The notes: generated by a model from the letters alone, not told the origin. DNA of 41,073 nucleotides from a virus (IMGVR_UViG_2537561979_000009:1-41073); one strand, 5' to 3'; counted from the stretch's first letter, positions 4,801 to 35,615 are shown. Numbers and translations are program-made.

Positions 4801-5359
4801 CCGGCGTCATCCTGCGCATCCGGATACTGAACGGGCGCGGAGGCAGGTTACCCACCACCACCGAGGCCAGATACTGCGAGGTGGTTTTGCCCTTAATGGT
4901 GATGTCTTTTTCCGTCACCCAGCCACCGTTACGCTGTATCTGAACCAGCAGGCGGACTTCCGACGGATTCCGGTCCCCCTTTGAGGTGGTTTCCACCAGT
5001 GCCTGCACACCGAAGGTCAGGCGCAGACGGTCGATGTTTGCCGACGTGATGGTCCGGGTAATCGGCGTGTCGTACTTCACTTCCGTACCCAGCACCGTCT
5101 CGGAGCCGGAGGATTCAAATCCCTCCGGCGGCGTCTGCTCCTGCTCACCTGACCGGAACACCACCGTGACGCCGGATATATTGGTATTCCCCTCACTGTC
5201 CAGCACCGGCGTACCGTTCAGCAGCACGCTTTTTAATCCATCCACCGGTCCTTGTATCGGCCCTTCGCTGATGACATCGATCACACTCAGCAACTGCGTG
5301 GACTTCAGGTTGTCCTTCGCTTCGCGCGGGGTATGCCCCTTACTGCTGCCTTTACCCAT
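1850..5359 (-). CDS. J: Tail tip host specificity protein J, 1169 aa, with a non-lambda C-terminal region
   Basis: N-terminus [24 protein letters not shown] and most of the length match lambda J as I recall it; the last ~300 aa diverge and contain an internal duplication. Confidence 0.93.
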
Positions 5360-5419
5360 TCGTCATGCTCCATAAACGACAAAACCGCCCGGAGGCGGTT
5401 TCACATAAAACATTTTGCA

Positions 5420-6067
5420 TCAGCGACCAATCACCACAACCCGGACGCCATCCCCCTCATCCGCTGTGCTGATCTCCTGCGAAATTACCAGTGACCCCAC
5501 GCGCATTTCACCGTACAGAACGGGCAGAGCATTCCCCTGGGCAACCATGTTTTCCAGTGAGGAGAAATAGGTGTTCTGTTTGCCGTTATCCGTGGCTGAT
5601 ACTCCGGGCATTCTGGCTTTCGGTGCCAGCATCTGCGCCACACCACCGAGCACCATACTGGCCCCTGCCGCATACATGCCCGATAAAGCCGCAGCCCCCA
5701 GCCAGCCTGCAGGGTTCCACCATGCCACCGCAATCAGCGCCGCGCCCAGCACTGCCTGAAACACACCACCACGTTTGGCTCCCGCCAGACGCGGCACGAT
5801 GTGGATCACGGCACCATTTGCCAGCGGTTCATTAAGACGGGCTGATAATTCGTTTTCGCCTGTATCACGCCCGGCAATACGCACCTGATACCAGCCGTCG
5901 CTCAGTTTCTGACGAAACGCCGGGAGCTGCGTGGCCAGCGCCCGGATGGCTTCGGCTCCCGTTTTCACACGAAGGTCGATGCGGCGGCCAAATCGTTGCA
6001 AATCCCCGTAAAGGCAGATGCGTGCCATGCCCGGTGACGCCAGAGGGAGTGTGTGCGTCGCTGCCAT
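5420..6067 (-). CDS. I: Tail tip assembly protein I
   Basis: 215-aa ORF in the lambda I position; overlaps K by 103 nt, the same overlap I recall for lambda K/I. Confidence 0.9.
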   Translation of the reverse strand: MAATHTLPLASPGMARICLYGDLQRFGRRIDLRVKTGAEAIRALATQLPAFRQKLSDGWYQVRIAGRDTGENELSARLNEPLANGAVIHIVPRLAGAKRGGVFQAVLGAALIAVAWWNPAGWLGAAALSGMYAAGASMVLGGVAQMLAPKARMPGVSATDNGKQNTYFSSLENMVAQGNALPVLYGEMRVGSLVISQEISTADEGDGVRVVVIGR

Positions 6068-26485: not shown

Positions 26486-26923
26486 TTATATCCCTGCCCT
26501 GGAGGACGCAGTTTTACGACGTATCGAATAATTTGTGCTCACATATCGATCCATCTCAAGGCGAACATCCAGCATCATCAACATGCCATCGATAACTCCT
26601 TCCGCTTTCTGCAGGCGCTTACCAACGCAAGTATCCGAACATCCATGTTTCCTTGCTAACTTCATGAACGTAATCCCATATACGTAGTAATCAACCAGCA
26701 TGTCATGCATATCGGCGTTGTTCTTTTTCAGGCGAGCCATACAACCACATATAATCATCGCGTCATCATCGGAACACTGCGATCGCGATTTTACTTTTGA
26801 CGGTATCAGCCCCTTAAATCCGGCGGCAATGCCTGACCATTCCACGTCTTCATGATTATTTGCGACCCATGCCCCCCAACGTTCAAGAACCATTTGAATA
26901 TCACGCATCAACTTTCTCCACAA
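26486..26923 (-). CDS. Q: Late gene antiterminator Q (QuuD/phage 21-type family)
   Basis: Cys-rich ~140-aa protein ([14 protein letters not shown]... [11 protein letters not shown]) between the nin-like region and lysis genes; alternative starts at Met6 and Met11. Confidence 0.65.
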
Positions 26924-27922: not shown

Positions 27923-28750
27923 TCAATGAACGGTATCGAGCAGCTTTAACAGCTCAGGGAATCGGGATTCGAAGAAATGCGGCTGCGTCTCGCGCGGATT
28001 TGCGGGACTGGTGATGTTCTTGCCGAACATGCAACCTTTCGCTGTCAGCGACCAGAATTTTTTGATGTTGTTAATCGCGGTACGGCTGTATCGTTCGCGT
28101 TGTTCAACGATCCCCAGCTTCGCCATCTGGTGATATGCCTGATTAGCCGTAAGGCGGATACCATACTGTTTCAGCAGTGCACTCAGCGACAGCGTAGGGC
28201 GGCTTGAACCATCTGGCGCATCAGCAGGTGCATCAATGGCATAGATCGGCATAAGTTCAGGAAGACCAGCTACCTTTGATAATTTCTGGTATGCACCAAG
28301 TTTCGAGGAGTTTGACAGATTTAGAGTCTTTGCTGCTGATTCAAGCAGAATGACCCCGGATTTAATTTTGTCGGATGTGGTTTCTTCTGGTGATGAATTA
28401 TGAAGCGCATCAAAAGTACGTATCACTTTTAAGCTGAATGCCGGGCTGATCCACATTGCATATGCATAGACCAGCTCTTTACAGACATACGTCCCACCAT
28501 TGCGCCCCTGAATGGTGATGACAGGAATACTACGGGAATCTCCCGTAGTTTCTTCTTCCAATAATTCCACAAGAGCCTTCGTTTCAGGACGACGCATAAA
28601 CTCGTGAACTTCCAGCGAACGGGAGGAGCGATTCTCACCAGCGGCAAGAAGAGCAGCTTTCTGAAGGTCGTTAAGACAGTAGTTAGATTCGAAGTACTGG
28701 CGCACAGAAACGCCATCAATTACAAGCAACTGATTCATTGGTTTCTCCAC
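27923..28750 (-). CDS. KilA-N domain-like protein (putative antirepressor/Roi-like), 275 aa
   Basis: N-terminal region resembles KilA-N DNA-binding domains; assignment tentative. Confidence 0.4.
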   Translation of the reverse strand: MEKPMNQLLVIDGVSVRQYFESNYCLNDLQKAALLAAGENRSSRSLEVHEFMRRPETKALVELLEEETTGDSRSIPVITIQGRNGGTYVCKELVYAYAMWISPAFSLKVIRTFDALHNSSPEETTSDKIKSGVILLESAAKTLNLSNSSKLGAYQKLSKVAGLPELMPIYAIDAPADAPDGSSRPTLSLSALLKQYGIRLTANQAYHQMAKLGIVEQRERYSRTAINNIKKFWSLTAKGCMFGKNITSPANPRETQPHFFESRFPELLKLLDTVH

Positions 28751-28900
28751 AAATTTTTATCCACGAGCGGGACTGCACTCCCTTTTCGTTGATGCAGGAT
28801 GAACTTACTGCGATTTTTAATAGTTATCAAGGATACACTGTTCATAAATACAGTATCTTTAACGAGGTAATACCCAAATTTAGGGTGTTGCTCAATTCCG

Positions 28901-31578: not shown

Positions 31579-31799
31579 GCTGCACCTCCGAGATGCTTCA
31601 TGTTTTTTCCGGAGCGAAAGGCTATAAGCGGCATACTGATGCGGTAATTACGGCCCAGCGGTTCACAAATCACCTTCTGACATTCACGGTCAACCAGGCT
31701 AACACGTAGAACATGCCCTGCAGGCGTGGTGTACCACTGACCCGGACGAGGACAACGGAAAGTCTGATTGGTAAAACGTTTGAAAATATTCCGGATCAT
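31575..31799 (-). CDS. Hypothetical small protein, 74 aa
   Basis: Start overlaps the Rha stop and its stop overlaps the O-like start. Confidence 0.4.
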   Translation of the reverse strand: MIRNIFKRFTNQTFRCPRPGQWYTTPAGHVLRVSLVDRECQKVICEPLGRNYRISMPLIAFRSGKNMKHLGGAA

Positions 31800-32959
31800 T
31801 TGCGCCCCCTTACCTCTGAAGGGTTCAGCGACAAATTTATGAGGCAGGCCAGTGCCGAAGCATCATTAATATAGTCATATAAGCTAACAGCCAGCGGAGA
31901 TTCGGCTTTTGCCAACATAGGATAAAGCTGCTGCAGCCAGACCTGATGAATTGATGAAATGTAGGAACAGAGAACGCTGGCGTTATGTGCAACGTCGCTC
32001 GGTACAGCGGGCTTTGAAAGCTGTTTCTCCATCTGGTTAAAGGCATTGATGTATGCCTCTTTGAACTGGGCAGCACGTTTCCCCGTGAAACCCATAGCAA
32101 GAAACGCAAAGCCGTCGCGGGTTATTTGATAGCAAGGAAGTTTGCGAGTACCGCCGTTGGGCTGGCGTACCAAAATTGATGTCTCCGCAAAATTGCGGGC
32201 ACAAAACTCTGGAGAACAATCCAAAATGCGGATCTTTTTCAGAACATCGTCATGACGTTTAGAGAAGAAGTCAGCAACAGCCAAAGAAGATGTAACAGCC
32301 TGACCATCAACGATGGCAATTTCAGGTTGAGAGAGGGTTGGGAGAGTAGTCATGGTGACAGCCCCGGTAGTCAGTTTTTTAGAAAACTCACCACATGGGA
32401 CGCCAATCACAGAGGTGGTGAGACGTACAGGGTTGGCGTTACCGGAGACTACCGAACCCGGCCCGACCGAAGTCGGCCCTGTACGCCCCACCATAATTTG
32501 GGCGTAGCAATGCTCATGACACGAAAAAACCGCATGAGCGCGGTTATGCTCAGTAATCAATTTCAGGACGCCAATCCCGGCACCCGTTTTATAAGGTGCC
32601 TGAACAGTGTAACGTCCCGGAATGGCAGAATCAATGTGCTGGTGGTCCTTCACACTCAACAAAATCACGCCTGAATTTCCACAAAGGACTAAAGCACTCA
32701 TGCGGGTAGTCTTTGCGAAAATAGATAACGCGCTGTGTTTCTGGTTCCCAACGAATAACATGAACATAAAGTCCTCTTCCGTCACGAAACCAGCGGTTAA
32801 GTTCCTGCACAACTCGCCCCCCACAGTCAGGTAAAGTTCTCTGTGGTTACTTACAGCCAGGTGATTTGGTAATCTGCATTCATGCCGTAACAACAGGTGT
32901 TCAGCCACGCGGACCACCAGCTGTTGCGACCAACGGTTATTTGCCGTTAAACTGTTCAT
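31796..32959 (-). CDS. Rha family phage regulatory protein; Rha domain in the C-terminal 185 aa, N-terminal 202 codons of uncertain reality
   Basis: MTTLPTLSQPEIAIVDGQAVTSSLAVADFFSKRHDDVLKKIRILDCSPEFCARNF...MGFTG matches the Phage_pRha pattern and begins at an internal Met near 32353; the ORF stays open to 32959. Confidence 0.6.
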   Translation of the reverse strand: MNSLTANNRWSQQLVVRVAEHLLLRHECRLPNHLAVSNHRELYLTVGGELCRNLTAGFVTEEDFMFMLFVGNQKHSALSIFAKTTRMSALVLCGNSGVILLSVKDHQHIDSAIPGRYTVQAPYKTGAGIGVLKLITEHNRAHAVFSCHEHCYAQIMVGRTGPTSVGPGSVVSGNANPVRLTTSVIGVPCGEFSKKLTTGAVTMTTLPTLSQPEIAIVDGQAVTSSLAVADFFSKRHDDVLKKIRILDCSPEFCARNFAETSILVRQPNGGTRKLPCYQITRDGFAFLAMGFTGKRAAQFKEAYINAFNQMEKQLSKPAVPSDVAHNASVLCSYISSIHQVWLQQLYPMLAKAESPLAVSLYDYINDASALACLINLSLNPSEVRGRK

Positions 32960-33507
32960 GCGTTAGTTTCTCCACAGACACAAAACGCCACGACGCCCGG
33001 AGCTGCACACTCGCGGGCGTCACTCTTTTCTGGAACGCAGAAAATTTTGTAGACCAGTGCCGCATGTTCCTGGAGCTTCGAAATCGACAGATACAACTCA
33101 TCATTAATTGCTGTCTGCTCATGTGGCTCCACTACCCCGTCTTCGATTGCCGAACGAATCTGCTTTGAGTAACTCCCGATCTGTTCAATAACTTCCAGTA
33201 GACGTTGGTTGATATCAGCGTTCTCTACTTCCTCAATTTCTGGAAGTGATACAAACACCCCACCAGCAGACTGTGCGACAGCATCCGCAATGTAGTGAGT
33301 GCCAGCAGCACGCTGTAAAATCATTGCCCATCCCAGCGGGAAAATCTGATCGCCATCTGCACGAAGGCGGTTGAATAAAGCGTTCTCTGTTACATCCAGC
33401 CACTCAGCAGCTTCAGCGTAGCCCCCCGGCAACGCCGCGATAGTTTTTCTGACAGCTTTCACGTACCACTCAGGCTGTTTTTCCACTTTCCAGTGATGAT
33501 TACCCAC
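32956..33507 (-). CDS. Putative CII-like regulatory protein, 183 aa, GTG start
   Basis: Second gene of the rightward operon after cro; start overlaps cro stop; family guessed by position. Confidence 0.35.
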   Translation of the reverse strand: MGNHHWKVEKQPEWYVKAVRKTIAALPGGYAEAAEWLDVTENALFNRLRADGDQIFPLGWAMILQRAAGTHYIADAVAQSAGGVFVSLPEIEEVENADINQRLLEVIEQIGSYSKQIRSAIEDGVVEPHEQTAINDELYLSISKLQEHAALVYKIFCVPEKSDARECAAPGVVAFCVCGETNA

Positions 33508-33760: not shown

Positions 33761-33857
33761 ATGACCTCCACATATTGCGTGATGAGCATATTATTTCACG
33801 CAAATATTTTGCGCAAGTTGATTTGCTTAACGCGCAATAAAGAAATGTAATAAACGC
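33761..33857. promoter_or_regulatory. OR region: divergent cI/cro promoters with operator-like dyads (TTGC-N7-GCAA class)
   Basis: TTGCTTAACGCGCAA at about 33823-33837, palindromic TTGCGCAA at about 33809-33816, inverted TTGCGTGA...TCACGCAA. Confidence 0.55.
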
Positions 33858-34550
33858 ATGAACATAGGAAACCGAGTCAGACAACTTCGCCAGGCGAAGA
33901 ACATGAAAATCGCCGATCTCGCTGAAGCAATAGGAGTGGATGCGGCGAATATCTCACGCCTGGAAACAGGTAAGCAGAAACAATTCACTGAACAAGCCCT
34001 GAGTAATATTGCCAGGAGCTTAGGTGTTGATATTGCTGATCTCTTTACCTCAGACTTCAAAAGTAATACTGTATGTAAAAACAGTATTAGTGAGGATGTT
34101 GCGCAGGTGAAGGATGTATTCCGTATTGAAATGCTGGATGTCAGTGCCAGTGCGGGAAATGGCCTTATCCAGGGCGGTGATGTCATTGATGTGATTCATG
34201 CCATTGAATACAGAACTGATAATGCTGTATCGATGTTTGGCGGACGGCCAGCCAATCACATTAAAGTTATCAACGTTCGTGGGGACAGTATGTGTCCAAC
34301 CATTGAACCAGGAGATCTCATCTTCGTTGATGTCAGTATCAATCAGTTTGATGGAGATGGTATCTATGTATTTGGTTTTGATGATAAAATTTATGTCAAA
34401 CGACTGCAAATGATACCTGACAAACTACTGGTGATTTCTGATAACCAGATTTACCGTGAATGGGGAATTACCAGCGAAAATGAACACCGGTTTATGGTCT
34501 TTGGAAAGGTCTTAATCAGCCAGTCACAAACCCTTAAGCGACACAATTAA
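33858..34550 (+). CDS. cI: CI repressor: N-terminal HTH plus C-terminal S24 (LexA-like) autoproteolytic domain
   Basis: 230 aa; HTH (MKIADLAEAIGVDAANISRLETGKQ), C-terminal GDSM serine and KR lysine motifs. Confidence 0.85.
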   Translation: MNIGNRVRQLRQAKNMKIADLAEAIGVDAANISRLETGKQKQFTEQALSNIARSLGVDIADLFTSDFKSNTVCKNSISEDVAQVKDVFRIEMLDVSASAGNGLIQGGDVIDVIHAIEYRTDNAVSMFGGRPANHIKVINVRGDSMCPTIEPGDLIFVDVSINQFDGDGIYVFGFDDKIYVKRLQMIPDKLLVISDNQIYREWGITSENEHRFMVFGKVLISQSQTLKRHN

Positions 34551-34570
34551 CCCTTACCTCCTCATCAATT

Positions 34571-34595
34571 AGCCACCCGAAGGTGGCTTTTCATT
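34571..34595 (+). terminator. Terminator candidate after cI (AGCCACC-CGAA-GGTGGCT then TTTTCATT)
   Basis: 7-bp perfect stem with tetraloop, 20 nt after the cI stop; short U-tract. Confidence 0.5.
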
Positions 34596-34605
34596 ACCCA
34601 TTAAA

Positions 34606-34658
34606 TTGCATATCTCGCAACAAAAACACTTGCACAATGCGCAACTTCATTTTATCTT
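34606..34658 (+). promoter_or_regulatory. OL/pL candidate: two 15-bp operator-like sites with possible -35 TTGCAC and -10 TATCTT
   Basis: TTGCATATCTCGCAA at about 34606-34620 and TTGCACAATGCGCAA at about 34630-34644, same TTGC-N7-GCAA pattern as OR, 24 bp apart. Confidence 0.45.
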
Positions 34659-35070
34659 TCTTTCCAGACCAACAAACAAGGTACTAACAAAATTTGGTTG
34701 TAACACGGCGTATGGCACATGCGTCGTTAGCGGTCTGGGGACGTTAAAGGGGACAATCCACTCCTTGCTCGGGCAAACAAACCAGGTAACCGGAATGTGC
34801 AAGTCAATGATGATGCTGATAAGACGCCTAACCAGCGTGGCGATTCGGTTTGACGCCTGGGAAGAGACCAGGGTGCAACGATGAGGGCATTTATGGAACC
34901 GCGACAAAGTGTGGTGCCGTAACTGGCTAAGTGCTCTCAGCGTTGTGGTAATCCGCGAAATGGCGCGGCGGTAAGTATAGCGGGGTTACTCTTTCCCCGT
35001 TGAGGACACCGGATTGTCAGGTTGACCATACGCCTGAGTGACAACCCCACCACAACAGCCACTGCTTTGG

Positions 35071-35202
35071 CGGTACCAGTTTGTACCCTTGCTTCCGGCT
35101 GGTACCGTCCTTTTTACAAAACAGAGAAGAGCATCACCGGACGACGGGCTCATAACCCAATCCACCCGGGCGGCTGCCACCGCAGGTGTTCTTCTCTGTT
35201 TT
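35071..35202 (+). ncRNA. Structured RNA element in the early-left leader (nested long stems); function unknown
   Basis: CGGTACCAG...CTGGTACCG (9 bp, about 35071-35107) then TCCTTTTT; AAAACAGAGAAGA (35118-35130) pairs with TCTTCTCTGTTTT (35190-35202) around GC-rich internal hairpins. Confidence 0.4.
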
Positions 35203-35252
35203 GTGGAGAAACCAACCGGCCTTGCAGGGTCGATATGATGAGGAGCAGCAAA

Positions 35253-35615
35253 ATGGCTAGCGAACGCAGTACTGATGTGCAGGCATTTATCGGGGAGCTG
35301 GACGGCGGCGTATTTGAAGCCAAATACGGCGCAGTTCTCAGTGAAGTCGCTTCCGGTGCGATGAACACGAAGAACAAAGGTAAGGTCTCGCTCAACCTGG
35401 AAATCGAACCATTTGATGAGAACCGTGTGAAAATCAAACATAAACTCTCATATGTTCGCCCGACTAACCGCGGGAAAATTTCCGAAGAAGACACCACCGA
35501 AACGCTGATGTATGTCAATCGCGGTGGTCGCCTGACTATTCTGCAGGAAGACCAGGGACAATTACTGACTCTTGCCGGTGAACCTGACGGAAAACTTCGC
35601 GCAGCAGGTCATTAA
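35253..35615 (+). CDS. Early-left accessory protein, 120 aa (YfdP-like by size and position)
   Basis: GAGGAG Shine-Dalgarno 8 nt before ATG at 35253; upstream part of the 197-aa ORF is rejected as leader. Confidence 0.5.
   Translation: MASERSTDVQAFIGELDGGVFEAKYGAVLSEVASGAMNTKNKGKVSLNLEIEPFDENRVKIKHKLSYVRPTNRGKISEEDTTETLMYVNRGGRLTILQEDQGQLLTLAGEPDGKLRAAGH

What the first reader, a model, noticed from the sequence alone, without database searches (positions are those of the whole stretch)
34650..35252. Long early-left leader with nested RNA structure and no N-like ORF
About 600 nt separate the candidate pL from the first early-left gene. No short arginine-rich N-like ORF is present; instead there are strong nested stem-loops (9-bp and 13-bp perfect stems) and a hairpin with U-tract. 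This could be a cis-acting antitermination RNA of the HK022 put type, an attenuator, or a small RNA.
Basis: partly seen in the sequence, partly recalled or inferred. Interest (0 to 1): 0.5.

Follow-up and report, generated by a model that had tools for sequence, protein, structure and literature searches.

The report
Modular noncoding RNA leader after pL
The 600-base gap between this prophage's early-left promoter and its first gene is a string of conserved structured RNAs, including an undescribed double-pseudoknot RNA found in about a third of complete E. coli genomes and a variant of a published small RNA, and it is not an HK022-type antiterminator.

Summary
About 590 nt of non-coding sequence separate a repressor-controlled pL (about 34631-34659) from yfdP (ATG 35253). 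There is no N-like ORF.

The leader is a mosaic of independent RNA modules:
1. A new ~180-nt RNA family (34702-34880) with five helices and two pseudoknots. Covariation supports it: 97% of cells paired against 27-43% for shifted controls, and 16 pairs with compensatory changes. It has no Rfam match. It also occurs in P1/P7 (between trnI and ban) and in Uetakeviruses (upstream of tRNA-Arg).
2. A P6 hairpin.
3. A "tRNA-slot" module (34942-35056). Together with terminator T1 (35069-35115) it corresponds to the published sRNA-17.
4. A long hairpin, H.

The put reading fails its membership tests. There is no homology to HK022 or HK639 put and no second copy in the window. In addition, T1 and H often occur without the core.

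Best reading (about 0.45): pL transcripts are cut at the tRNA-like junction and mostly stop at T1. This yields stable RNAs, and T1 gates the early-left genes. The core's molecular target is unknown.

The parts
34606..34659 (+). Two operator-like palindromes (34606-34620, 34631-34645) and candidate pL (-35 TTGCAC 34631-34636, -10 TATCTT 34654-34659)
   Evidence: Read directly. The same TTGC-N7-GCAA palindromes flank pR at 33810-33850. Homologous leaders place the core RNA 5-45 nt after an equivalent -10. The consensus scan does not call this promoter, so it is inferred.
34702..34880 (+). Core RNA, a new structured family. P1 34706-34726 (loop AUGGCACAU). P2 34731-34792. Invariant GAAUGUGCAAG 34793-34803. 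P3 34803-34841 enclosing P4 34824-34838 (loop CUAACCA). P5 34856-34872 (loop GAAGAGA). PK1 34715-34720 with 34795-34800. PK2 34830-34833 with 34847-34850.
   Evidence: Covariance model R1 scores it at 134.9 bits, E = 9e-43, as the only hit in the window. Pair counts: 96.7% and 97.5% paired against 27-43% for shifted partners, and 14 and 16 pairs with double changes. PK2 covaries: AACC/GGUU in the window clade against CACC/GGUG elsewhere, and by eye GGUC/GACC in L234 from the alignment. Frequent G.U pairs fix the + strand. No Rfam hit.
34875..34946 (+). P6 hairpin: GCAACG-AU-GAGGGCA ... UGCUCUC-AG-CGUUGU, with a variable tip
   Evidence: The tip is replaced by unrelated inserts between conserved arms in relatives. 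The 3' arm motif GUGCUCU(C/U)..GUUGU is present in 194 of 213 family members. The G.U pair in the window against A-U in relatives is consistent with the + strand.
34942..35056 (+). tRNA-slot module: a variable interior closed by GUUGUGGU/ACCACAAC and followed by AGCCA. With T1 it is the homologue of sRNA-17 (34941-35114).
   Evidence: The inverted repeat is I4. In Uetakeviruses a real tRNA-Arg(UCU) starts in the GUUGUGG motif at the end of the shared homology, 2 nt downstream of where this closing stem begins. mEp460 carries a different interior. The sRNA-17 primers and probe map here on the pL-sense strand. ARAGORN finds no tRNA in the window.
35069..35115 (+). T1 intrinsic terminator: GGCGGUACCAG ... 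CUGGUACCGUC followed by CUUUUU
   Evidence: -20.5 kcal/mol. The flanks UUGGCGGU and ACCGCCCUUUUUACA are conserved, and the distal stem shows compensatory changes across 15 clusters. In RS218 the 3' RACE end of sRNA-17 lies at this U-tract, and the deletion that replaced the tRNA-slot module and, from the primer sequences, the 5' arm of the stem raised yfdP about 96-fold. That strain carries a Cm cassette, which is a caveat.
35111..35212 (+). H hairpin (25-nt arms 35116-35140/35180-35204, 15 bp perfect) plus the tail GGAGAAAC (35205-35212). The 5' arm starts in the T1 U-tract.
   Evidence: MFE -49.2 kcal/mol and the same architecture in 13 diverse relatives, including compensatory arm changes in L302 and F1055. 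It always directly follows T1.
35240..35615 (+). Shine-Dalgarno GAGGAG (35240-35245) and yfdP (ATG 35253, 120 aa), the first early-left gene. It is not N-like.
   Evidence: There is no Pfam family. Homologues in CPS-53, SfV and mEp460 are annotated YfdP or hypothetical.

Best explanation
The pL leader is a polycistronic precursor of structured noncoding RNAs, built from independently exchangeable modules and closed by a conserved intrinsic terminator.

Transcription from pL yields, in order: the core RNA with its P6 hairpin, a tRNA-slot RNA, and T1. Read-through from the repressor gene may feed the same transcript in a lysogen.

Processing and termination. The transcript is cut at the junction CGUU|GUUGUGG (34941/34942). 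This is the start of the closing stem of the tRNA-slot module. In Uetakeviruses a genuine tRNA-Arg 5' end lies 2 nt further downstream, in the same motif, so RNase P is the likely enzyme. Most polymerases stop at T1. The products are (a) a ~240-280-nt RNA carrying the doubly pseudoknotted core and (b) an sRNA-17-type RNA of about 173 nt.

Gating. Only the polymerases that read through T1 transcribe hairpin H and the early-left genes (yfdP, yfdQ, yfdR and so on). T1 therefore gates the operon. H probably serves as a processing or stabilising hairpin at the 5' end of the mRNA.

The core. It is an autonomous early-expressed RNA gene. It rides in repressor-controlled transcripts of lambdoid phages, P1/P7 and Uetakeviruses. 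It most likely acts as a folded RNA product that binds a protein or other factor. It is probably not the antiterminator of this particular operon.

What is shown: the family, its structure and strand, its single copy, its lack of relation to put, the independence of the modules, and the conservation of T1 and H. For the mEp460-type homologue, the literature shows the RNA ends, expression in a lysogen, and the cis effect of the deletion.

What is inferred: RNase P cleavage, accumulation of the core RNA, its action in trans, and the role of H.
For: Family and structure. The core forms a large family: about 90 clusters at 92% identity from IMG/VR and GenBank phages, and it is present in 1831 of 5426 complete E. 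coli genomes. Covariation is strong and includes a pseudoknot that was not in the model.

The core moves as a unit between unrelated contexts:
- Lambdoid pL leaders.
- An operator-promoter cassette on the strand opposite the late genes in Uetakeviruses, where it is followed immediately by tRNA-Arg and T1.
- P1/P7, one nucleotide after tRNA-Ile and upstream of ban, in the C1-controlled ban operon.
- Some members are followed by a hairpin that reads as a terminator for a convergent gene, with what looks like antisense coding sequence beyond it (read by eye).

Flanking tRNAs supply natural processing sites.

Co-transcription and ends. sRNA-17 runs from the junction to the T1 U-tract on the pL-sense strand. 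It was detected by Northern blot in a lysogen. The authors' qPCR amplicon starts at the first bases of the core, so both RNAs lie on one transcript (PMC7719688).

T1 works as a terminator. Wild type gave 0.49 yfdP reads. The strain in which the tRNA-slot module and the 5' arm of T1 were replaced gave 47.

The core is dispensable for the rest of the leader. T1 plus H occur without the core in at least 39 loci. In L363 pL runs straight into the sRNA-17 module. F1055 has the same repressor type and the P6, slot, T1' and H modules, but no core.
Against: No direct evidence exists that the core RNA accumulates or acts in trans, and no target is predicted.

The RNase P assignment rests on positional analogy. 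ARAGORN sees no tRNA in the window, and the sequence after the closing stem is AGCCA rather than N-CCA.

These phages lack N yet keep a strong terminator in front of their early-left genes, so some read-through mechanism is still needed and is not explained here.

In 57 of 82 clusters the next long ORF lies on the same strand, 250-700 nt downstream. That also fits a cis-acting leader.

The yfdP de-repression in the published mutant could come from the Cm cassette promoter rather than from loss of T1.
Confidence: 0.45

Rival explanations
1. The core RNA is a processive antiterminator that is put-like or EAR-like in logic but unrelated in sequence. The nascent RNA would bind the transcribing polymerase and let it read through T1 and later terminators, replacing the missing N protein.
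For: The phages that carry it at pL have no N, and Casjens and colleagues suspect an RNA mechanism for such phages (PMC12315714). In many lambdoid members P1 starts 5-10 nt after the -10 region, as putL does. 200 of 228 members have a terminator-like hairpin within 800 nt downstream. In several Uetakeviruses an ORF follows T1 and T2 directly, with no room for a promoter. The mid-operon position in P1 resembles that of EAR, as I recall it.
Against: There is a single copy per genome and none in the pR operon. T1 and H, with the same downstream genes, occur in at least 39 loci without the core. In the RS218 lysogen, transcripts that include the core still end at T1, and yfdP is essentially silent. 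Some members appear to be followed only by a convergent gene (by eye). The reverse-complement control in the terminator scan is also high, at 68%.
Confidence: 0.2
2. The leader is an rrn-like, Nus-factor-dependent device that protects the long untranslated transcript against Rho-dependent termination. The 3' arms of P6 and H (UGCUCU(C/U)..GUUGUGG) would act as boxA/boxC-like sites that recruit NusB and NusE.
For: The motif GUGCUCU(C/U)N3-4GUUGU is present in 194 of 213 members, and about 50 carry UGCUCUUU, identical to the rrn boxA core. Four distinct sequence contexts have a perfect GCUCUUUAA(C/A/U)AA right after P5. mEp460 and mEp390 belong to a phage collection described as Nus-dependent (PMC11893012). 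A 600-nt untranslated RNA is a natural Rho target.
Against: The motif is base-paired inside P6 and H. Other leaders keep the same hairpin with AGCUAAG/CUUAGC arms and no boxA-like sequence. The window itself has GCUCUCAG, only 5 of 8 boxA-core positions. Nus dependence could equally reflect Q function. No binding test is possible with these tools.
Confidence: 0.12
3. The core is a ligand- or tRNA-sensing aptamer, and P6, the slot stem and T1 form its expression platform, that is, a riboswitch or attenuator. The alternative pairings would be CAACG/CGUUG against GUUGUGGU/ACCACAAC.
For: The fold is complex, with invariant unpaired nucleotides. The two closing stems overlap in the shared GUUG and so are mutually exclusive. 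An intrinsic terminator lies downstream.
Against: The distance from the core to T1 varies from about 90 to over 500 nt, and whole ORFs and tRNA genes can lie in between. P1 has no terminator after the core. The downstream genes share no common function. T1 occurs without the core. No Rfam riboswitch matches.
Confidence: 0.08
4. The stretch 34692-34941 is only DNA-level control: an ArcA-regulated promoter of sRNA-17, as interpreted by Song et al. 2020.
For: Phosphorylated ArcA shifted this fragment in EMSA, and sRNA-17 levels respond to arcA and to oxygen (PMC7719688).
Against: Sixteen base pairs show compensatory changes, and G.U pairs are specific to one strand. The same element occurs in P1 and in Uetakeviruses, upstream of other things. 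The authors' own qPCR forward primer lies at the start of the element, so it is transcribed. The GTTA repeats they used are confined to the window clade.
Confidence: 0.05

Closest known systems
sRNA-17 of E. coli K1 RS218 (Song et al. 2020, Front Microbiol, PMC7719688)
   Same: It sits in the same position in the same kind of prophage leader (repressor - leader - yfdP). It shares the 5' end motif CGUUGUGGU, the 3' segment ACCACAACAGCCACUGCUUUGGCGGUACCAG...CUGGUACCG and the same T1 terminator, and it is on the same strand.
   Different: The interior between the closing-stem arms is unrelated. The window version is about 173 nt and the RS218/mEp460 version is 193 nt, so it falls in that paper's class of 'degenerate' copies. 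The paper treats the upstream core RNA as a promoter. Its trans targets are not established.
HK022 putL/putR and HK639 putL (RNA-mediated antitermination)
   Same: Both are structured RNAs encoded just downstream of pL in a lambdoid phage that has no N, with terminators further downstream.
   Different: There is no sequence or model similarity. The put RNAs are about 70 nt with two stem-loops (PMC9378689), whereas this RNA is about 180 nt with five helices and two pseudoknots. It is single-copy, not paired between the pL and pR operons. It also occurs in non-lambdoid phages and in stand-alone cassettes.
tRNA-linked ncRNA maturation, for example mascRNA/MALAT1 and the large phage RNAs GOLLD and ROOL that sit next to tRNAs (recalled from memory)
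   Same: A structured ncRNA directly abuts a tRNA or a tRNA-like element, so tRNA-processing enzymes could define its ends. It is phage-borne, and variable domains are inserted between conserved helices.
   Different: No Rfam model of those families matches. This RNA is smaller, and processing has not been shown.
Lambda N-nut and rrn boxA antitermination
   Same: Position at the start of an early operon. Some members carry boxA-like UGCUCUUU motifs. mEp460 and mEp390 come from a Nus-dependent phage collection.
   Different: There is no N gene and no boxB. The boxA-like sequence is base-paired and is not universal.

Membership tests
HK022-type put RNA | Sequence and structure homology to putL/putR (about 70 nt, two stem-loops, conserved CAUGCGUCGG...GGCGGGYUCAGGAWGARCGGCAAU) | tested here: not met
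   blastn of the leader against the HK022 immunity region gave best E = 0.73. The covariance model of the core gave no hit in HK022 (L132, L133) or HK639 (L319), which carries an annotated putL. The only shared string is the 9-mer CAUGCGUCG, which is about chance level.
HK022-type put RNA | Two related copies, one in the pL operon and one in the pR operon | tested here: not met
   The window holds one hit only. Self-blast of the leader against the rest of the window finds nothing beyond 16-nt words. The phage records listed show one place each, and the totals are 138 places in 134 records and 91 in 91.
HK022-type put RNA | Promotes terminator read-through in cis, and is blocked by RNAP beta-prime zinc-binding-domain mutations | not testable with these tools
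   This needs reporter or in vitro transcription assays. The only indirect evidence is that T1 is efficient in a lysogen despite the upstream core.
Lambda-type N/nut system | A short arginine-rich N ORF as the first pL gene | tested here: not met
   ORF list. Pfam scan of all early-left ORFs and leader ORFs finds no N family. The related Stx2c phage leader gives the same result.
Lambda-type N/nut or rrn antitermination | A single-stranded boxA (GCUCUUUA) next to a boxB hairpin | tested here: inconclusive
   The window has UGCUCUCAG inside the P6 stem. Relatives have UGCUCUUU or a perfect GCUCUUUAACAA. Others have none.
sRNA-17 | Sequence identity to the RACE-mapped 193-nt RNA, and the same genomic position | tested here: inconclusive
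   The ends and the terminator match, and the published primers map at 34941 and 35048-35114. The interior of about 100 nt is unrelated. It is a positional and flank homologue, in the authors' 'degenerate' class.
Intrinsic (Rho-independent) terminator (T1) | A GC-rich hairpin immediately followed by a U-tract, and a 3' end formed in vivo | tested here: met
   An 11-bp stem plus CUUUUU. It is conserved with compensatory changes. The 3' RACE end of the homologue lies at the U-tract. The scanner misses it only because its loop limit is 8 nt and this loop is 19 nt.
tRNA gene (slot module 34942-35056) | A cloverleaf recognised by a tRNA finder, with an anticodon loop and a T-loop | tested here: not met
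   ARAGORN finds no tRNA or tmRNA in the window, although it finds tRNA-Arg(UCU) in the same slot in Uetakeviruses.
Any Rfam 15 family | A covariance-model match | tested here: not met
   At gathering thresholds only C4 and isrK are found, both elsewhere in the window. A search at E up to 10 on 34400-35500 returns four chance-level hits.

The most novel reading that the evidence does not exclude
The core RNA (34702-34880) may be a new class of phage effector RNA: a compact double-pseudoknot fold, expressed from repressor-controlled early promoters of lambdoid phages, P1/P7 and epsilon15-like phages. It would bind and reprogram a host machine. One possibility is RNA polymerase, which would make it a third, structurally unrelated RNA antiterminator after put and EAR. 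Another is an RNA-processing or defence factor. If so, it would be one of the most widespread uncharacterised functional RNAs in E. coli genomes.
Probability: 0.3. Interest if true: 0.85.

Novelty: new variant of a known kind. Interest (0 to 1): 0.62.

Why it matters
How N-less lambdoid phages such as SfV, mEp460, cdtI, the Stx2c phages and LLS-like phages run their early-left operon is an open question. A 2025 genome paper could only guess at 'put-like' (PMC12315714).

This analysis shows that the gap holds defined, testable RNA parts: a strong conserved terminator gate, a tRNA-slot RNA that includes the virulence-linked sRNA-17, and a new structured RNA.

The new RNA is present in 1831 of 5426 complete E. 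coli genomes, and also in phage P1 and in O157 typing phages. It is absent from Rfam and unannotated in every RefSeq record listed. A fold with two pseudoknots and invariant loops usually means a specific molecular partner.

The analysis also reinterprets the published 'sRNA-17 promoter' as transcribed, structured RNA. The reported yfdP/yfdR 'targets' are more likely cis effects.

Tried and rejected
- Rfam searches at gathering and permissive thresholds: nothing in the leader.
- Protein-coding reading: rejected. The candidate small ORF MCKS... has a different length and stop in the Uetakevirus copy, and variable regions are replaced by unrelated hairpins. No Pfam family matches. Annotated 'hypothetical proteins' on the opposite strand in mEp460 overlap RNA helices.
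- Homology to put: rejected.
- Second copy in the window: none.
- The H-tail motif TTGTGGAGAAAC looked like a nutR/putR-type second site, with four copies against 0.24 expected. The two minus-strand copies I checked (28741 and 32966) are Shine-Dalgarno regions placed a few bases before start codons.
- boxA idea: kept only as a weak rival.
- tRNA identity of the slot module: ARAGORN negative.
- Using YfdP to collect leaders from genome contigs gave only 7 loci, so conserved RNA words were used instead.
- King et al. 2011 (J Bacteriol) could not be read. I used the HK639 GenBank annotation instead.
- RS218 is not in the E. coli collection. sRNA-17 was mapped through the paper's primers and alignment.
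- Pas sRNAs (bioRxiv 2026) lie in the late region and are unrelated.

Full report
**Setting.** The window is an SfV/mEp460-like lambdoid prophage. The repressor (HTH plus Peptidase_S24, 33858-34550, + strand) is followed by its own terminator (34571-34588). The cro and cII-like genes run the other way. Downstream of the repressor lie two 15-bp palindromes of the same type as at pR, overlapping a weak -35/-10 pair (TTGCAC-17-TATCTT, 34631-34659). The first early-left gene is yfdP (ATG 35253), followed by yfdQ (DUF2303), a yfdR-like HD protein, and DUF551 proteins.

The leader is about 590 nt and has no credible ORF. No N-like protein is present. The 9-bp perfect stem with a U-tract is 35071-35079/35099-35107. 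The long hairpin has arms 35116-35140/35180-35204, with 15 perfect bp. The two are consecutive rather than nested. The + strand folds with z = -4.45.

**The leader is a mosaic.** blastn against phage genomes splits it into blocks with different distributions. The block 34705-34948 recurs in three settings:
- At 82% identity in epsilon15-like Uetakeviruses (phiV10, TL-2011b, phiv142-3, O157 typing phage 9). There it lies between terL and the portal gene, on the opposite strand, behind its own TTGACA promoter and a TTACC-N-GGTAA palindrome. It is followed immediately by tRNA-Arg(UCU) and a terminator.
- At 78% identity in P1, P7, D6, RCS47 and SJ46. There it begins one nucleotide after tRNA-Ile and precedes ban, inside the C1-controlled ban operon.
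- In more diverged form in other lambdoid pL leaders (mEp390, a Klebsiella phage) and in Salmonella and Enterobacter Uetakeviruses.

It is present in 1831 of 5426 complete E. coli genomes, with 554 places on plasmids. The only feature annotated under any listed match is the adjacent tRNA-Arg.

**The core RNA.** Scans of IMG/VR with conserved words gave about 250 distinct copies in about 90 clusters at 92% identity. From these I derived a structure for 34702-34880:
- P1, with the loop AUGGCACAU.
- P2, with a GUA bulge and a variable distal part.
- The invariant strand GAAUGUGCAAG.
- P3 enclosing a variable hairpin and P4 (4 bp, loop YYCACCA).
- P5, with the loop GAAGAGA.
- Two pseudoknots. PK1 pairs the P1 loop GCACAU with AUGUGC. 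PK2 pairs the P4 loop CACC with GGUG.

On the MAFFT alignment, 96.7% of cells are paired against 28-42% when partners are shifted, and 14 pairs carry changes on both sides. On the model-based alignment of 95 sequences the figures are 97.5%, 16 pairs and 213 cells.

PK2 was not part of the model and still covaries. The window clade has AACC/GGUU and the rest have CACC/GGUG. By eye, L234 has GGUC/GACC in the alignment. PK1 is invariant, so it can be neither supported nor refuted.

Abundant G.U pairs fix the pL-sense strand as the functional one; for example, U.G occurs in 90 of 93 sequences at one P1 pair. Rfam 15 has nothing for this region even at E = 10.

**Not put.** The covariance model finds exactly one copy in the window (134.9 bits). 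It finds none in HK022, and none in HK639, whose GenBank record annotates a putL-like RNA. HK639 putL is visibly homologous to HK022 putL and not to this RNA. According to the cryo-EM paper, put RNAs are about 70 nt with two stems, and they come as a putL/putR pair (PMC9378689). Here there is no pR-side copy.

**Downstream modules.**
- After P5 comes P6 (34875-34946). It is a hairpin with conserved arms (GCAACG-AU-GAGRGCA / UGCUCUC-AG-CGUUGU) and a freely replaceable tip.
- Its 3' arm overlaps the closing stem GUUGUGGU/ACCACAAC of the next module (34942-35056). The interior of that module differs completely between the window, mEp460 and other prophages. In Uetakeviruses a real tRNA-Arg occupies the same slot, starting in the GUUGUGG motif 2 nt after the point where the window's closing stem begins.
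- Then comes T1 (35069-35115). Its flanks UUGGCGGU and ACCGCCCUUUUUACA are conserved, and its distal stem changes in a compensatory way.
- Then comes H (35111-35212). Its 5' arm begins in the T1 U-tract, and its tail is GGAGAAAC.

**Link to the literature.** Song et al. 2020 mapped a 193-nt 'sRNA-17' by RACE in an mEp460-type prophage of E. coli K1 RS218 and found no Rfam match (PMC7719688).
- Their Northern probe, RACE primers and 'full length' primers place it on the pL-sense strand, from CGUUGUGGUG to the T1 U-tract. This corresponds to L001 5391-5584 and to window 34941-35114.
- The window carries the same ends and terminator but a different interior.
- Their 'promoter' fragment is the core RNA plus P6. 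Their qPCR forward primer sits at 34692-34713, so the core and sRNA-17 are co-transcribed, and the sRNA-17 5' end is most simply a processing site.
- That end falls at or 1 nt before the first base of the closing stem. This is where RNase P would cut a tRNA-like substrate, and it is 2-3 nt upstream of the position of the genuine tRNA-Arg 5' end in Uetakeviruses.
- Replacing the module and, judging from the primer sequences, the 5' arm of T1 with a Cm cassette raised yfdP from 0.49 to 47 reads and yfdR from 0 to 8.5. I read this as a cis effect of losing T1, of cassette read-out, or of both. It is probably not trans regulation.

**Is the core needed to pass T1?** Probably not.
- The H-tail word retrieved T1-H units from IMG/VR. 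At least 39 of them have no core within 1 kb upstream.
- In L363 the promoter runs straight into the sRNA-17 module. In the commonest type, other genes precede a P6-like hairpin with different arms.
- Salmonella phage F1055 has a closely similar repressor and operators, and the P6, slot, T1-like and H modules in front of a different first gene (rdgC-like). It has no core.
- Conversely, the core occurs without T1 or H in P1, and in members where a hairpin that reads as a convergent gene's terminator follows it.

The modules are therefore independent. This argues that the core is an autonomous RNA gene and not the operon's antiterminator. Context statistics do not decide the matter: 57 of 82 clusters have the next long ORF on the same strand, and 88% have a terminator-like hairpin within 800 nt, against 68% on the reverse complement.

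**Best explanation (0.45).** The leader is a precursor of structured RNAs that is cut at the tRNA-like junction and mostly terminated at T1. T1 gates the early-left genes, and H is a processing or stabilising hairpin. The core is an early-expressed folded RNA with an unknown partner.

**Rivals.**
- An unrelated RNA antiterminator (0.2).
- A Nus/boxA-type anti-Rho leader (0.12). It rests on UGCUCUUU-like arms in P6 and H, perfect boxA copies in a few members, and the Nus-dependent origin of the mEp phages. It is weakened by base-pairing of the motif and by leaders that lack it.
- A riboswitch or attenuator (0.08).
- A mere promoter (0.05).

What remains unexplained is how these N-less phages pass T1 at all.

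**Novelty.** The terminator and slot RNA are a variant of the published sRNA-17. The core RNA family appears to be undescribed: it has no Rfam family, no annotation in the RefSeq records listed, and no literature hit for its invariant words. I rate the whole as a new variant of a known kind, namely phage early-leader and phage-borne ncRNAs, with moderately high interest because of the fold's complexity and its very wide distribution.

Noticed in passing
window 32411-32498 (-) and 32523-32599 (-): Rfam gathering-score hits to C4 antisense RNA (82.3 bits) and isrK (60.1 bits) lie inside or upstream of the 387-aa antirepressor-like ORF (31796-32959) of the early-right operon. This looks like a P1/P7 immI-type c4-icd-ant module sitting between the cII-like gene and the replication genes of a lambdoid prophage.
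   Followed up: no
window 35201-35212 (+), 28741-28752 (-), 26912-26923 (-), 32966-32977 (-): TTGTGGAGAAAC (up to 1 mismatch) occurs four times against 0.24 expected. The minus-strand copies at 28741 and 32966 lie a few bases before start codons and look like a strong shared Shine-Dalgarno context. The leader copy has AAC where the others have ATG, which could mean a decayed or decoy ribosome-binding site at the foot of hairpin H.
   Followed up: partly
L225, L169, L222, L146, L153 (about 20-30 nt after P5 of the core): A few family members carry a hairpin followed by a perfect rrn/P22-type boxA (GCUCUUUAACAA or GCUCUUUAAUAA) directly after the core. On the other strand the same hairpin reads as a terminator for a convergent gene.
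   Followed up: partly
L144 3992-4156 and 4799-4961 (both -): One IMG/VR contig has two tandem copies of the core RNA about 640 nt apart on the same strand (122.5 and 158.4 bits).
   Followed up: no
L099 and L134 (SPN1S), tip of P6; also L010 2897-3000: One P6 tip variant contains two hairpins with classical T-loop sequences (CUGGUUCAAUUCCAG and GUCNGUUCGAUUCGGAC), but ARAGORN calls no tRNA there. It may be a tRNA-derived or T-loop-containing insert.
   Followed up: no
L137 1330-1425; many IMG/VR members, directly upstream of the core: An H/P6-like hairpin (ACACAAC-AU-GGAAGCGCA ... UGCGCUUCC-A-GUUGUG) also occurs immediately 5' of the core in many phages. This hairpin type is therefore a repeated, movable module in its own right.
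   Followed up: partly
PMC7719688 against window 34692-34941: The published 'sRNA-17 promoter' EMSA fragment and the qPCR forward primer lie in transcribed, structured RNA. The strongest 'targets' of sRNA-17 (yfdP, yfdR) are the genes immediately downstream of the deleted terminator, in a strain that carries a Cm cassette.
   Followed up: yes
L001 (mEp460) 5097-5465 and 5507-5650 (-); L136 1511-1753; L010 2796-3368 (-): GenBank 'hypothetical protein' CDSs annotated in these phages overlap the structured RNA modules, mostly on the antisense strand. They are probably annotation artefacts.
   Followed up: partly
L011 (P1) 282-383: The P1 ban operon that hosts the core also carries an annotated dicF-like region and three tRNA genes. 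It is therefore another early operon packed with noncoding RNAs.
   Followed up: no
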